In this document: positions 15,585 through 49,582 of the stretch, one piece after another
How positions within the stretch are numbered: the first letter of the stretch is position 1
Layout: each line of letters starts with the position of its first letter
Assembly (NCBI RefSeq): GCF_006345805.1
Contig: NC_043020.1
Location: forward strand, 24,614,001 to 24,678,000
Reading direction: 5' to 3'
DNA from: Octopus sinensis
Taxonomy: Eukaryota
Length of the DNA: 64,000 nucleotides
Position numbers and translations under genes: made by a program
The notes under the pieces: model-generated
What the model saw: only the letters and a program-made list of their open reading frames with translations
What the model was told of the DNA's origin: nothing
The model's database searches: none

Positions 15585-15989
15585 TCAAAATAAGCAACAA
15601 GGATATCCAAGGTAGTGTAGTACAATCGTTTCATGCTACTTCATTTTATTAAACAATGTAAGTATTACATCAGTTTTAAAATGTAGAGCATTCTTCAGAC
15701 ATATATACAATTTTTTAATTAAATAGACAATGTACATTTATACTTTTTCATTTGCCAACATTACAAAGAGGGTAGATATATAAGAACATGGTAGTTAGTA
15801 GAAGGTCCTTCTCCATCTGCAGATTTTTATAAAAAATGTACATTGTCTATTTAATTTTAAAAATTCTATATGTAGCTGAATAATGCTCTACATTTCAAAA
15901 CTGATGTAATACTTACAGTGTTTAATAAAATGAAGTAGCATGAAACGATTGTACAACACTACCTTGGATATCCTTGTTGCTTATTTTGA
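15585..15989. repeat. Long inverted repeat (~155-bp arms 15585-15739 / 15834-15989), probable Penelope-like pLTR derivative
   Basis: Arms are near-exact reverse complements; flanked by (TA)n; each arm holds a hammerhead-like motif. Confidence 0.85.
15871..15958 (+). ncRNA. Degenerate type I hammerhead ribozyme (mirror copy on - strand at 15616-15702)
   Basis: TGTAG-CTGAATA-ATGCT...AGCAT-GAAA-C-GATT-GTA-CAACA; the minus-strand copy has the canonical CTGAAGA and ...GTA-CTACA. Confidence 0.6.
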
Positions 15990-17524
15990 TTATAATCACC
16001 CCGTTTGATTTATATGAATAATACCATACCAAATTCTGGTGCCTGTAACTTAAGTACCATATTCATCTGAATCTAAATTTTGCTGAATATATATATATAT
16101 ATATTATGTATGTATGTATGTATGTATGTATGTATGTATGTATGTATGTAGATAGATAGATAGATAGATAGATAGATAGATAGATAGATAGATAGATAGA
16201 TAGATAGATAGATAGAGAGATAGAGAGAGATGACAATCTAAAGGACTCCGGGTAAGTAAATATATGTAAACGCTTGATTCCAGTGTAAATTTTGTATTAT
16301 TCGATACTAATAGGAGATAGCTTACATGTTTTCTACTACATGAAGGAATTTTGTAAGTCCTATCAGCAAATGGAACACGTGTAATGGTGAATAAATACTA
16401 AAAACTTTTCCTATCATATGTTTTCATTATACACACACACACACACACACACATACACACACACACACACACACAGACGCCTGTATACAGATGTACTAAC
16501 TAGCCCAGGCACACACAGACACAGATATGAACGCAAATGCACGCATAGACAATGCAAAGACGCATTTGTGCTTACAGCTCCCCCTCTGTGACATGAAGTC
16601 AAATTTCCAACGTCTTTAGCGTTCCTATGTCGCTTATTCATGTCGGTCAATCGATTTCAACACGACTGGTTCACCTGACATCACGCGACCTTGTTAAGAG
16701 CTTCCAGTGAACTCTTCCACATTTACACACGTTGTACGCGCAACATTACTTTTTTTAATATAAGTAGACACACATATATTGATAAATGTATGCTTATGTA
16801 TGCGCGTATATATATATATATATATAAATATATACATAGATATATATATACATATATATATACATATATATATATATATATACACATGTATATACATATA
16901 TATATATATACACACACATGTATATAAATATATACATAGATATATACACACACATACATACACACACATATATACACAGACGCACATGCATATATATATA
17001 TTTATATATACGCATATGCCTGTGTACATATACATATATCTAAACATATACATGAATATATAGACACATTCCCATGCATACATTCATAGTATATCAATAT
17101 ACATACATATATACAGACATATGCATACACAAACATACACACAAATGCACATATATACATACACACACACATACATATATATATATATATATATATATAT
17201 ATATATATATACATACTTATAAGCTGAGCAAAAGTTGTACGTACGCCGCTAAATATAAATCCCAAAAGCGGAACAAGAATGCAAAGGAGGATAATATAAA
17301 ATATGCGGACAGATGGACGATACAAAGACGGACAGGAAAACCAGGACGGAACATTCTTGGCTTTCTATACACATATATATTTACATACACATGTACGTGT
17401 GTGTGTGTGTGTGTGTGTGTGTGTGTGTGTGTGTGTGTGTGTGTGTGTGTGTGTGTGTGTGTGTGTGTGTTTGGTTGTCTACTCCTTGTGCAGAGTTTGA
17501 CCGCCTCCTGTACCTACACGGTTG

Positions 17525-17905
17525 CACCATCATGGCATCTGACGTGGCTTTTTAAACCAGACAATGTTTAAAAATTGCATATCTGATTTGAACCAAGAGC
17601 TGCAGATAAGTTCTGATCTTTGTGGATCTTAAAATGCCTTTTAAGGCCTCCGTAAGATTTGCAGAGCTTCTGGCATACATTGCATTGAAAGGTGTACACA
17701 GACATAGAAATAGTTGGTGGAGGTTCGTTTTCCATGGATTTGCAAATGAGATTTGAGCCCAGCCAAAGAAAGGCCTGGTCGGTCAAAAACTGCGCATACA
17801 AAAAGCTCATTGTGATTCGCCTTCTCGATCGTAACATTCTTCTTTGAATCTCTTTTGAGTTCTGCATGTGTTATCCTGGCCTATTCAAACTTAACTCCAC
17901 ACATT
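17525..17905 (-). mobile_element. RTE-clade LINE 3' fragment with terminal C2H2-like knuckle
   Basis: FQCNVCQKLCKSYGGLKRHFKIH, preceded in another frame by GVKFE*ARITHAELKR; this CxxC...GLxxHxxxH C-terminus is typical of RTE ORFs; short (ATG)n-like tail. Confidence 0.7.
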
Positions 17906-18611
17906 GTATGTGTGTGCATACGTTTATATATATATATACATATATTATATATATATATGCATATATATACATACGCATGTACCCACTGAAAATTAACACC
18001 GCCACTTTTTCTCTCTCCTTGTTTTAATACTCAAGTATACAGTATATAAAACATACATATTTACAGACACGTATACATATACAGACACACACACACAGTC
18101 AAGCATATATATACACATACATATACACACATAGGCACATATAAATATACACACATAAATACACATACATACATGGCCAGTAACATTAGCCTTGCGTAGA
18201 GACGGAGCGAGTGAGAAAGAGAAAGAGGTAGAAGTACTTGCAGACAAAGGAAGTCAGTCAAAGAGAATAAGTGATGTAGCTTAATCCACAAAGAATGTTA
18301 ATCTGTGAATATCCCGCCTAAGCCCATCCCATTTACACCAATTTCGATTCGATGGACTTCTTGACCTCCACCGTCTTAACTTCTACACACACATCGTATC
18401 TTACGACTATACATACATATATGTGTGTGTGTATGTGTGTGCTACTTCTATATTCATATCTTTGCACATTCATATAAATATGCGTGTATATATATATGAA
18501 TCTGCATGCATATGAATGTGTATAGATTATATATATATACACACACACAATCAAGTATGTATGTATGTACCATGTGAGTGCAAGTGTGTGTTTTATGCGA
18601 AGATACCAATG

Positions 18612-46364: not shown

Positions 46365-46675
46365 TGCACCTTCGCGAAGGTGAAAGTATTGTTTTCAGTC
46401 GCGTTTGCTTGCTTGCTTGTTTGTCCGTGGACAAGATATCTCAAGAACCGCTCGATGGATTTGGATGAAATTTCCAGGGATGTTTGGCCTTGTGGTTGGC
46501 ACGAACTGATTAGATTTGCGGATCGATCCGGTACCGGACAAGGTTTCTGGATTATTTTTCCTGTTTTCTTTACTTTAATTTTGAGAGCAGTTCGATTCTT
46601 TTTTTAATATTTTCGTTTGTGAGAGCAGTCGAGTTTATTTCAGATATTCTCATTTAAAAAATCATCTCTCGCTAA
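46365..46675 (+). mobile_element. Helentron/HINE (DINE-1-like) non-autonomous element fragment
   Basis: Terminal palindrome CACCTTCGCGAAGGTG (46367-46382), then TATTGTTTTCAGTCGCG, a short (GCTT/GTTT)n and GATGGATTTGGATGAAATTT: the architecture of HINE-type elements. Confidence 0.5.
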
Positions 46676-48988
46676 TCGATAAATTAATTACCAGTCAAGT
46701 ACTGATGTCGATGTAATCGACTATCCACATCTCAAATTCCAGGTCTTGTGCCTACAGTTGAACGGATTATTATTATTATTATTATTATTATTATTATTAT
46801 TATTATTGTTATTATTATTATCATTATTATTATTATCATTATTATTATTATTATTATTATTATTATTATTAATTCTAGTAGTAGTAGCAGTAGTATCTTT
46901 TGGTGGTATCTTTTATTAGTTTCCTTATCATTATCCAGATTTCAATGTCTTTTCTTACTTTTTTTGTTGTTCTTAAAGGAAGAAGAGGAGGAGGAAGAGA
47001 AAAAGCTTCTCAATTTCAATGATTTATACCTTCCTGGTGCGTGCGTGTGTGTGTGTGTGTTAGGGGGTTGGAGGGCGAGAGGAGGGAAATATGTTTGAAG
47101 CATGTAGCCTTTGTCAAAGTAATCGCATCTATATCTTTACATACGTGTACGTATATATATACACATATATGTACATATATACACATGTACATATATATAT
47201 ATAAACATACACATGTATATATATATACATATATATACAAATATGTACATATTTATATATACATACACATATGTACATATATATATATATATATAATATA
47301 TATATATATATATGTACATATATATATATATATATATATATATATATGTACATATATAATATATATATATATTATTACAAATGCAGACGTATTGAGATGC
47401 ACATTTATAGAAACATGTAAACATATACTCACGCGTATACCTGCATATATACACACAGACAGCGGCGCTGACGTGTATGTTTATGTGTGTGTGTATGCGC
47501 GCGTGCGCAGACGACCCGTTTTATCTCGCCATAAATTATTCGAGGAATTTTTACTTGCAAAATCTTTAACTTATTAAAGATGCCACACATCGAAATAAAA
47601 GAAAGAAAAACTAAACGGAATCAGACATCGGTTAGTCTTGTAATGTTCTGACAGGGAGCGGGGTGGCATCTCAGTGTGGTGGTGGGGGTGACGATGATGA
47701 TGATGTGGTATACAGAGATGTAGGGGTGGATTAAGTCAGCTTGCTTACCCAGCAGGTCTCCTGGTTAAATTCTATCAGAAATAATATGAAAGGATATCTA
47801 AACAAACTACATACTCGTACAGACGTGTGTTTGCATGTGTCTGAGTATGTATGTGTGTGTAAGCGTGTGTGTACGGATGTAAATATATATATATATATAT
47901 ATTTGTACACATATATATATATACACATACATACATACATACATACATACATACATACATAAGTATATTCATGCACACACATGCAGAGAGAAATTTTTCT
48001 TGTGTTTGCCTTTATATACATATATATATATATATATATATATATATATATATATAATATATATATATGCACATAAATAGACACATGTGCGTGCGTACAC
48101 ACACACACATAAATATATATGTAAGCGTATATATATGCGGTCATATACGTACTATATATATATATATATATATATATATATATACACGCATGAATATATG
48201 CGCATAAATGTGTGTGCATATACACACACGCACATACACACATATACATGCATACCCACCCACATGCACACATTCTTCCTACCTATATAGCCAATCAGTG
48301 CCTATGGTATGGTGGTGGTGGTGGTAGATGGAACCGGAATTTCAACTGAGAACTCGGAAGACAAGACTGCGATGGGTGGTAAAGATAACGTTGATATGTT
48401 TCCATATATTTTATTTATGTGGAAATCGAGACGAACTGGATACAAACACAGCCAAACAAGAACAGAAATCTCGTTTGAGCTAAAGACAAAGCGCTACCAA
48501 CACCACCTCCACCACCAGATACCCACAAAATCCACCCCTATATTTATTGCCACTATCAAATACCCCCAGATCGAGCTAATTAGGTAAGATCCCTAACTGA
48601 GAATATGCTTGTTTTATCTTTTGTTGTATCACAATCAAGATTGAGGCTCTGGTTTATACCTCAACATAAAACAATGCACGCTGGGTACGAAAGTGTATCT
48701 ATGTATATCTGGGTATACATACATAGATACACACACACACACACAGACGTGTGTGAGAGAGAGTGTGTGTATCATCATGATCTTGTCTAACATTTGAAAA
48801 GCTCGCTTCGCAGGGACGTCATTCCAGTTACCGTATATTTTTAGGTGGCACCGTGTCATATATGTCTTCTTAAAACCTAATGCTGACTAAAGCATTTTCA
48901 GTTTACATTCTATATATATATATAATATATATATATATATATATATATATATATATATATATATATATATATATATATATATAAATAA

Positions 48989-49123
48989 TAGTTATCGCCA
49001 TACTAATATGGCATTCTTATAAAAATAAGAATAAAGCTGTCCGCTTATTAGCTCATGGAGCTAATAAGCGGAAAACTTTATTCTTATTTTTATAAGAATG
49101 CCATATTAGTATGGCGATAACTA
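48989..49123. repeat. Palindrome (~66-bp arms, 3-nt loop) embedded in (TA)n
   Basis: tagttatcgccatac...ttagctc-atg-gagctaa...tatggcgataacta, two mismatches by eye. Confidence 0.92.
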
Positions 49124-49582
49124 ATATTTTCCGGGAACGCTGCCGTTGTTCTCTTTTAGAGAGACTTAGTAATTTTAATATTTATATATATAATATATAT
49201 ATATATATAATATATATATATATATATATATATATATACGTGATGGAAACCATCCCTCTATCCGAAACCCAGGAATCTAATTCAACTCCAGATTTTTGTT
49301 CCCAACTTACTCACATACATATTAAAAGTATGAATTTTCTATTGGAAATCATTCATGATAAATCCCTAAAACGGACGAAAGCCCTAAATAAACGTTTTTG
49401 TTCAAATCCCGACCTTCTTTTTATTAAAATATTAAATCTCTCCACCACGCACGGACTGCATCCTGTCATACGTTGAAATTCTATATTTTACTTGTTTCCA
49501 TCAATAGACTGCTGCCATACTGGTGCGCCACCTGGATTTTTTAGTTGAATGAATCGACCTCAGTCATTTTTTAATGAATTCA

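What the first reader, a model, noticed from the sequence alone, without database searches (positions are those of the whole stretch)
15585..49175. A class of (TA)n-embedded fold-back elements carrying outward-facing hammerhead ribozymes
Seen in sequence: four elements with unrelated primary sequence (15585-15989, 30492-30802, 39331-39462, 48989-49123) share one design. Each is a long inverted repeat set in (TA)n, in three cases with a short unique tail on the right. In each arm a CUGANGA/GAAA/NUH motif (intact or degenerate) reads away from the centre, so both strands encode it. A fifth locus (19358-19625) joins such a motif to a PLE-like endonuclease tail. Established knowledge: Penelope-like elements carry type I hammerheads in their pseudo-LTRs and often leave inverted, 5'-truncated copies; non-autonomous hammerhead retroelements (retrozymes) exist. 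Inference: several independent PLE families target TA microsatellites here and leave ORF-free ribozyme palindromes. These could be mobile in their own right, cut host transcripts from either strand, or supply long dsRNA for ADAR/Dicer.
Basis: partly seen in the sequence, partly recalled or inferred. Interest (0 to 1): 0.8.

Follow-up and report, generated by a model that had tools for sequence, protein, structure and literature searches.

The report
Penelope retroelement double-primed insertion palindromes
These mirror-image DNA pieces sitting in TA repeats are short insertions left by Penelope-type retrotransposons and a ribozyme-bearing tandem repeat, likely made when both cut DNA strands each start a copy of the element's RNA and the two copies are joined head to head, so they record how these elements move rather than being a new mobile class.

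Summary
All four palindromes are real, lie in (TA)n and belong to four unrelated genome-wide families. All four carry a one-sided tail. Hammerheads are intact at 39331, decayed at 15585, a variant at 30492 and absent at 48985. Longer copies tie three families to Penelope-like elements (two Hydra-clade, one Neptune/Nematis-type). The fourth is a fragment of a 362-nt retrozyme. Family 3 has 528 short palindromes; its centre, like family 2's, sits 29-30 nt behind a TATA-like box of the parent, the likely transcription start, so these copies lack that box. Junctions vary per copy and recur in each subfamily, so the mirror is rebuilt at each insertion. In families 1 and 4 the tail-less arm often reaches further than the tailed arm, and some arm pairs do not overlap. 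That favours priming from both target strands over fold-back. Inside the hairpin the ribozyme is predicted not to fold. Inverted, tailed, TA-targeted Penelope insertions are in print; the start-site stop and two-armed retrozyme arrays were not found in my searches. The scan noted similar palindromes earlier in a shark genome (e1-7858806).

The parts
15585..15833 (-). Family 1 tail-less arm (inverted 3' end of a Hydra-clade PLE), reaching further upstream than the tailed arm; core CUGAAGA at 15698-15692, stem I broken
   Evidence: (L031)
15834..15989 (+). Family 1 tailed arm; decayed hammerhead core (CUGAAUA at 15876)
15990..16086 (+). Family 1 tail, about 100 nt, ends in (TA)n
30452..30494 (-). 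Family 2 tail (on the left in the window)
30495..30802 (.). Family 2 palindrome from a Neptune/Nematis-type PLE; centre at the predicted start site, 30 nt behind a TATA-like box of the parent; variant hammerhead cores at 30594 (-) and 30700 (+)
39331..39398 (-). Family 3 tail-less arm with intact type I hammerhead (core starts at 39392)
39395..39462 (+). Family 3 tailed arm: predicted +1 at 39395, core 39401-39407, GAAA 39420-39423, predicted cut 39439|39440; the arms overlap on the self-complementary 4-mer 39395-39398
39463..39528 (+). Family 3 tail; in the parent copy L144 it lies just upstream of the ORF start
48983..49054 (-). Family 4 tail-less arm = positions 177-106 of a 362-nt retrozyme unit; no hammerhead
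49052..49187 (+). Family 4 tailed arm = unit positions 100-235; no hammerhead
19490..19808 (+). Old (about 72-86% to other copies) hammerhead-bearing repeat, partly tandem elsewhere; intact type I core at 19526
19307..19489 (+).

Best explanation
The palindromes are short insertion products of Penelope-like retroelements and of a retrozyme that likely borrows their enzymes, likely formed when both nicked strands of a (TA)n target each prime reverse transcription and the two cDNA ends are joined head to head. Shown: parents with RT and GIY-YIG frames for families 1-3; two fixed outer ends per family, whose interval is the tail; head-to-head geometry; TA flanks; junction variety. Inferred: the outer ends are two RT start sites on the RNA, one used by each strand (as in vitro for the anole element). 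The cDNAs stop at random (family 1), run off the capped 5' end of the RNA 70-150 nt away (families 2 and 3, hence a fixed centre without the TATA-like box), or run on round a circular or multimeric RNA (family 4). The ends are likely joined by microhomology or end joining. Both arms probably come from one RNA or one source locus. The products are predicted to be dead ends whose ribozymes are trapped in the hairpin.
For: Parents; Hydra motifs from Craig 2021 section 11. Family 3: 528 palindromes with a centre gap of at most 30 nt; 0 of the first 50 cross +1; 19 of 19 arms with the native T before +1 run on past the TATA-like box 29 nt upstream. Family 2: 17 of 30 arms end within 2 nt of a site 30 nt behind a TATA-like box, and 13 carry the promoter region. 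15 junction types in 48 loci, with the same types in all three loop subfamilies, and no arm-private change shared between loci except a local duplicate pair. Tail-less arm reaches further in 7 of 12 clean family 1 pairs and 18 of 27 classed family 4 clusters; 4 family 4 clusters and 1 family 1 pair have arms that do not overlap. 31 of 58 family 4 arms cross the predicted cut site and 3 end within 3 nt of it. TA runs at 76 of 80 family 3 flanks against an 11% background. Short-read contigs show loose ends at +1 (runs X1, X17), at the arm end (all four runs) and at the tail end (X1, X17, X18). In vitro, the anole PLE cuts and extends both strands from two internal start sites that bound the tail (PMC11167929).
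Against: No RNA 5' end was measured: +1 rests on TATA spacing and the pile-up of ends. A cap-derived G is only suggested (10 G, 8 C, 2 A, 1 T as single bases between the TA run and +1) and is not seen in family 2. Four pairs among the first 100 rows cross +1 on both arms by a few nt. Arms never mix loop subfamilies (0 of 48), which fold-back also predicts. Very short mirror stubs next to +1 could be snap-back products. Later deletions in unstable palindromes could mimic unequal arms. No parent ORF is established for family 4 (one junction to a Hydra-type endonuclease end, L346). The family 2 pattern cannot see arms cut downstream of +2.
Confidence: 0.72

Rival explanations
1. Same Penelope origin, but the mirror arm arises by self-priming: the first cDNA (or an antisense RNA, as proposed by Arkhipova 2013) folds back and copies itself.
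For: The arms always share the loop allele and in family 2 share rarer variants; the one-base-short junction can be drawn as a hairpin with a 3-nt loop; mini mirror stubs occur at +1; PMC3846280 proposes it.
Against: One arm should contain the other. The tail-less arm reaches further in 7 of 12 family 1 pairs, 5 pairs do not overlap at all, and among one-base-short junctions the complete arm is the tailed one in 7, the tail-less one in 5, with 1 double-tailed. Inserted bases at 5 of 50 centres suggest two ends being joined. The stop at the predicted sense-strand start fits a sense template.
Confidence: 0.15
2. The fixed-centre palindromes (families 2 and 3) are mobile in their own right: transcribed by read-through and recopied whole as hairpin elements.
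For: At least 32 copies are identical over 131 nt including the centre; 26 of 50 share the perfect junction; they likely outnumber promoter-bearing copies.
Against: They lack the TATA-like box; each subfamily shows the same junction spectrum; arm-private changes are not inherited; 55 solo arms also begin at +1; the common junction is a 4-nt self-complementary overlap that would recur by itself.
Confidence: 0.07
3. They are functional two-way ribozyme or dsRNA modules kept by selection to cut or silence host transcripts.
For: Cores are intact in young family 3 copies; hairpins are very stable, -106 to -239 kcal/mol.
Against: With outward-facing motifs the antisense arm is made first and captures the ribozyme (stem I probability 8e-52); one element has no ribozyme and older copies decay; no host exon was detected in the window (91 frames against Pfam).
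Confidence: 0.04
4. They are palindromic MITEs of DNA transposons that target TA, or assembly artefacts.
For: TA flanks and inverted repeats; a Tc1/mariner remnant with inverted ends does sit in (TA)n in this window.
Against: Asymmetric tails, hammerheads, continuity with RT/GIY-YIG parents, hundreds of distinct flanks and junctions, and the same ends in short-read contigs of other runs.
Confidence: 0.02

Closest known systems
EN+ Penelope-like elements, Hydra clade (Craig et al. 2021, PMC8557442; passages and section 11 read)
   Same: C-terminal GIY-YIG-type region with CxCX5C, CxxC and CxH; DKT; hammerhead; (TA)n target; inverted 5'-truncated partner; one-sided tail (families 1 and 3).
   Different: Tails here are 65-110 nt against the 30-40 bp described; RWR for RWK in family 3; hundreds of ORF-free palindromes ending at one site are not described in what I read.
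Neptune/Nematis-type PLEs with CX2-5CxxC linker (PMC8557442)
   Same: The family 2 parent has RT YLDD, CxxxxCxxC and GIY-YIG (PF01541, E 1.4e-6); TA bias; 41-nt tail.
   Different: Its hammerhead is a family-wide variant (U3-A8, GCAA, short stem I) of doubtful activity; the clade was not placed on a tree.
Poseidon of the green anole in vitro (Frangieh et al. 2024, PMC11167929; first 2 of 4 parts read: main text and start of the methods)
   Same: Both strands cut and extended; two internal RT start sites bound the tail; uncut RNA is the main template.
   Different: That work does not show how the two products are joined; the genomic copies here show joined head-to-head products and a stop at the predicted RNA 5' end.
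Head-to-head Penelope junction palindromes in Adineta vaga (Arkhipova et al. 2013, PMC3846280, passages read) and opposite-strand dual hammerheads (Cervera and de la Pena 2014, PMC4209133, passages read)
   Same: Head-to-head inverted pLTRs, tail, TATA/Inr-like motifs in the pLTR, paired hammerheads 100-700 bp apart on opposite strands, U3-A8 core.
   Different: They were read as self-priming on an antisense template; non-containing arms and the stop behind a sense TATA-like box argue otherwise here.
Animal non-LTR retrozymes (PMC7229834, passages; bioRxiv 10.64898/2026.07.22.740005, parts 1-3 of 5: all main text; its supplements are closed)
   Same: Family 4: 362-nt ORF-free tandem unit, one type I hammerhead per unit, 2,676 exact motif matches; a PLE link has been proposed from co-occurrence and pLTR similarity.
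   Different: Here the arrays are mostly head-to-head (12 of 15 consecutive clusters) with fixed tail and tail-less ends in (TA)n, i.e. the PLE insertion signature itself; the word 'inverted' does not occur in PMC7229834 and I saw no such description in the preprint text.
L1 twin priming (recalled, not from a call)
   Same: Second target strand primes internally on the RNA and gives an inversion joined by microhomology.
   Different: In L1 the two parts do not overlap; here both starts lie a tail apart, so the same stretch is usually copied twice.

Membership tests
EN+ Penelope-like element (families 1-3) | Parent with RT and C-terminal GIY-YIG endonuclease upstream of the same 3' sequence | tested here: met
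   Family 3: L143/L144 (broken frames; RVT_1 E 0.0017, below cut-off). Family 2: L213/L214 (PF01541 above cut-off). Family 1: endonuclease end about 1 kb upstream in L276 and L040, RT not seen.
EN+ Penelope-like element (families 1-3) | Inverted 5'-truncated partner and one-sided tail | tested here: met
   Family 3: 42 of 48 scored with one tail, 2 both, 4 none (2 of these have a tail with a deletion); families 1 and 2.
EN+ Penelope-like element (families 1-3) | Type I hammerhead in the pLTR | tested here: met
   Intact motif in families 1 and 3; variant in family 2. Activity not tested.
Hydra clade (families 1, 3) | CxCX5C linker, CxxC and CxH, DKT, RWK, (TA)n target | tested here: met
   Read by eye; RWR for RWK in family 3; only the endonuclease motifs were seen for family 1.
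Hydra or Neptune clade | Placement on an RT tree with named reference elements | not tested
   430 relatives at E<=1e-20, many about 700 aa, but none of the 120 listed is named as a PLE.
Non-LTR retrozyme (family 4) | ORF-free tandem units of 150-400 nt, each with a type I hammerhead | tested here: met
   Period 358-362 nt, up to 7 units, U3-A8 core.
Non-LTR retrozyme (family 4) | Self-cleavage and circular RNA | not testable with these tools
   No run on record as RNA; contigs only.
Self-propagating palindromic element | Own promoter and inheritance of junction or arm-specific changes | tested here: not met
MITE of a DNA transposon | Symmetric terminal inverted repeats shared with a transposase parent | tested here: not met
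   Ends are asymmetric and the parents encode RT or GIY-YIG frames.
Rfam hammerhead families | Score at or above gathering threshold | tested here: not met
   Best HH9 22 bits against 52, fifth locus only; none among the 150 rows shown of 285.

The most novel reading that the evidence does not exclude
This genome holds hundreds of 'strong-stop' footprints showing that Penelope-like enzymes integrate by priming both target strands on one capped sense RNA, one from each end of the tail, and that the same machinery copies retrozyme circles by rolling round them from both strands. That would explain tail, head-to-head inversion and retrozyme arrays with one mechanism and map each family's start site from DNA alone.
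Probability: 0.5. Interest if true: 0.72.

Novelty: new variant of a known kind. Interest (0 to 1): 0.5.

Why it matters
How Penelope-like elements make their inverted, tailed insertions is stated as open in the papers read (PMC8557442, PMC11167929). These short, young, very numerous copies separate the two proposed routes (self-priming against priming from both strands) with genome data alone and name a defined 70-135 nt template for an in vitro test. They also give insertion-level support for retrozymes being moved by Penelope enzymes. In practice they warn that such palindromes will be mislabelled as MITEs or microRNA hairpins.

Tried and rejected
Rfam scans: microsatellite and hairpin matches to miRNA models are shape artefacts; no hammerhead at threshold. 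The repeat finder was swamped by (TA)n. RNA evidence: no RNA holder listed; only contigs could be laid, which cannot show starts or levels; the depth step at +1 is not used as a copy number; no strand-change joint was listed there. The idea that the ribozyme cut site sets the centre was rejected as the main route: 38 micro-palindromes near it against 528 at +1; 6 of the 38 have an arm ending exactly at the cut and 9 are perfect overlaps beside it, a weak hint of some cutting in vivo (hand count). The cap-G test was inconclusive. In one search many family 1 rows were mis-paired through a TA run in the reference and were dropped; 12 clean pairs among the 30 position-ordered loci were counted, one of them (L267); L285 and L288 were left out for non-standard outer ends, and loci chosen by likeness to the window (L031-L060) were not counted. 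The family 4 regions were picked by me from the listing, so the inverted fraction uses only the first 30 hits (15 clusters); of 29 inverted clusters 2 had odd ends and one is a local duplicate. The endonuclease-tail reading of 19307-19498 found no support. Literature searches found no description of start-site-terminated PLE palindromes; subscription papers and Repbase/Dfam notes were not searchable, and the preprint's supplements were closed.
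Full report
Setting. The window is G000:C24:24614001-24678000 of a 2.72-Gb, microsatellite-rich genome, probably a cephalopod (recalled from a SINE, not tested). Of 91 frames scanned against Pfam only one matched, a Tc1/mariner remnant, so no host exon was detected.

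Observation. The four inverted repeats are the four strongest local self-matches in the window (87-98%). Their DNA is unrelated. A relaxed hammerhead descriptor finds 6 motifs against 0.04 in shuffles. Only 39331 has intact motifs in both arms. At 15585 both are decayed, at 30492 both are a U3-A8/GCAA variant, and 48985 has none. Rfam does not reach threshold for any. All four have a one-sided tail.

All are repeat families. First-look candidates number 3192, 1144, 559 and 1445 (40 scored each). Exact motif counts are 411 for family 1, 200 for family 2, 528 short palindromes for family 3 and 2,676 for family 4.

Parents. Longer copies run upstream into Penelope-like frames. Family 3 (L143, L144) has an RT with YRDD and DKT and a C-terminal region with CxCX5C, CxxC and CxH, the marks that Craig et al. 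give for the Hydra clade. Family 1 ends about 1 kb behind a Hydra-type endonuclease end. Family 2 (L213) has YLDD, CxxxxCxxC and GIY-YIG above the Pfam cut-off. All parent copies seen are broken or partial. Family 4 is a 362-nt tandem unit with one hammerhead per unit, a retrozyme; the window copy is unit positions 100-235 plus 177-106 inverted. One array abuts a Hydra-type endonuclease end (L346).

Outer ends. Each family has two fixed outer ends: about +57 and +165 in family 1, 173-178 and 238 in family 4, arm end and tail end in families 2 and 3. Usually one arm uses each. This matches the two RT start sites that bound the tail in the anole element, which cuts and extends both target strands in vitro. 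TA runs lie at 76 of 80 family 3 flanks against 11% background.

Inner ends. Family 1 is cut at random (-8 to -430 or further). Families 2 and 3 pile up at one site, 30 and 29 nt behind a TATA-like box present only in longer copies. In family 3, none of the first 50 short palindromes crosses it (hand count: 26 perfect, 13 one base short, 2 two bases long, 1 extra G, 3 deletions, 5 insertions). 55 solo arms start there next to a TA run (hand count of 85 overlapping rows). All 19 of 19 arms with the native base before it run on past the box. Four pairs do cross it by a few nt. In family 2, 17 of 30 arms end within 2 nt of the site. Loose ends at the same three boundaries appear in short-read contigs of other runs. 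I infer that the site is the transcription start and that RT ran off the RNA 5' end. In L144 the tail lies just before the ORF start, so even a full-length message offers the priming sites near its 5' end. A cap-derived G is only suggested.

Made anew each time. In 48 of the first 50 loci there are 15 junction types, and the perfect and one-base-short types recur in all three loop subfamilies. Changes private to one arm are not shared between loci apart from one local duplicate pair. The arms never mix subfamilies (0 of 48), so they come from one RNA or one active source.

Two primings or fold-back. Fold-back needs one arm to contain the other. The tail-less arm reaches further in 7 of 12 clean family 1 pairs and in 18 of 27 classed family 4 clusters (7 the other way, 2 equal). 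Five pairs do not overlap at all. In tandem arrays containment is a weaker test, but the non-overlapping cases are short monomeric ones. Fold-back, as proposed in PMC3846280, is not excluded for some loci, and later deletions could blur the picture.

Retrozyme arrays. 12 of the first 15 clusters on C1 are head-to-head. Both arms can be multimeric, up to about 2 kb; 31 of 58 arms cross the predicted cut site and 3 end at it. This fits a circular or uncut multimeric template. The link between retrozymes and PLEs has been argued from co-occurrence and sequence; the insertion signature was not described in the texts I read.

Function. Because the motifs face outward, a transcript from either side makes the antisense arm first. 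The predicted probability of stem I drops from 0.24 to 8e-52. Only 38 micro-palindromes centre near the cut site, in line with uncut RNA being the main template. Long hairpins could feed Dicer or ADAR if transcribed; there are no data here.

Fifth locus. The hammerhead at 19526 is intact and belongs to an old repeat spanning about 19490-19808. The upstream endonuclease reading is unsupported.

Verdict. These are known kinds of element: Hydra- and Neptune/Nematis-type PLEs and a retrozyme. Inverted, tailed, TA-embedded remnants and opposite-strand hammerhead pairs are in print. What appears new is the start-site-terminated palindrome class and the arm geometry that favours priming from both strands. 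An earlier scan note on a shark genome reached a similar 'built anew' reading; my reading was recorded before it was seen.

Noticed in passing
   Followed up: no
window 3358-4001: Internally deleted Tc1/mariner-type element with inverted ends and a transposase HTH piece, also set in (TA)n.
   Followed up: partly
window 26273-26399: Decayed 127-nt palindrome abutting (TA)n; a similar-looking sequence lies beside L083. Possibly another family of the same kind.
   Followed up: no
window 55941-56372: 432-nt element with 30-nt terminal inverted repeats, MITE-like.
   Followed up: no
window 28942-29325: 216-nt-period tandem duplication, 98% identical over 168 nt.
   Followed up: no
window 40566-40606 and 15381-15484/40924-41029: Short GC-rich hairpin and a shared repeat end, Helitron-like by recall.
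   Followed up: no
L346:965-1364 (G000:C1:41653000-41655700): A Hydra-type endonuclease end with an asparagine-rich insert upstream runs directly into the family 4 retrozyme array: template switch, nested insertion or the true parent. Similar N-rich inserts are described in PMC3846280.
   Followed up: partly
G000:C18:3.9-5.2 Mb: Six family 3 solo arms with nearly the same 4-nt mirror stub cluster here, probably segmental duplicates.
   Followed up: no
L140-L146: The family 3 3' UTR is 1-2.5 kb of mixed microsatellites carried as part of the element, so some genomic microsatellite tracts are spread by it.
   Followed up: no
L004, L006, L016 flanks: Different TA-targeting families sit side by side in one TA run, e.g. 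family 3 beside family 1 or family 2 ends and beside another PLE endonuclease piece.
   Followed up: no
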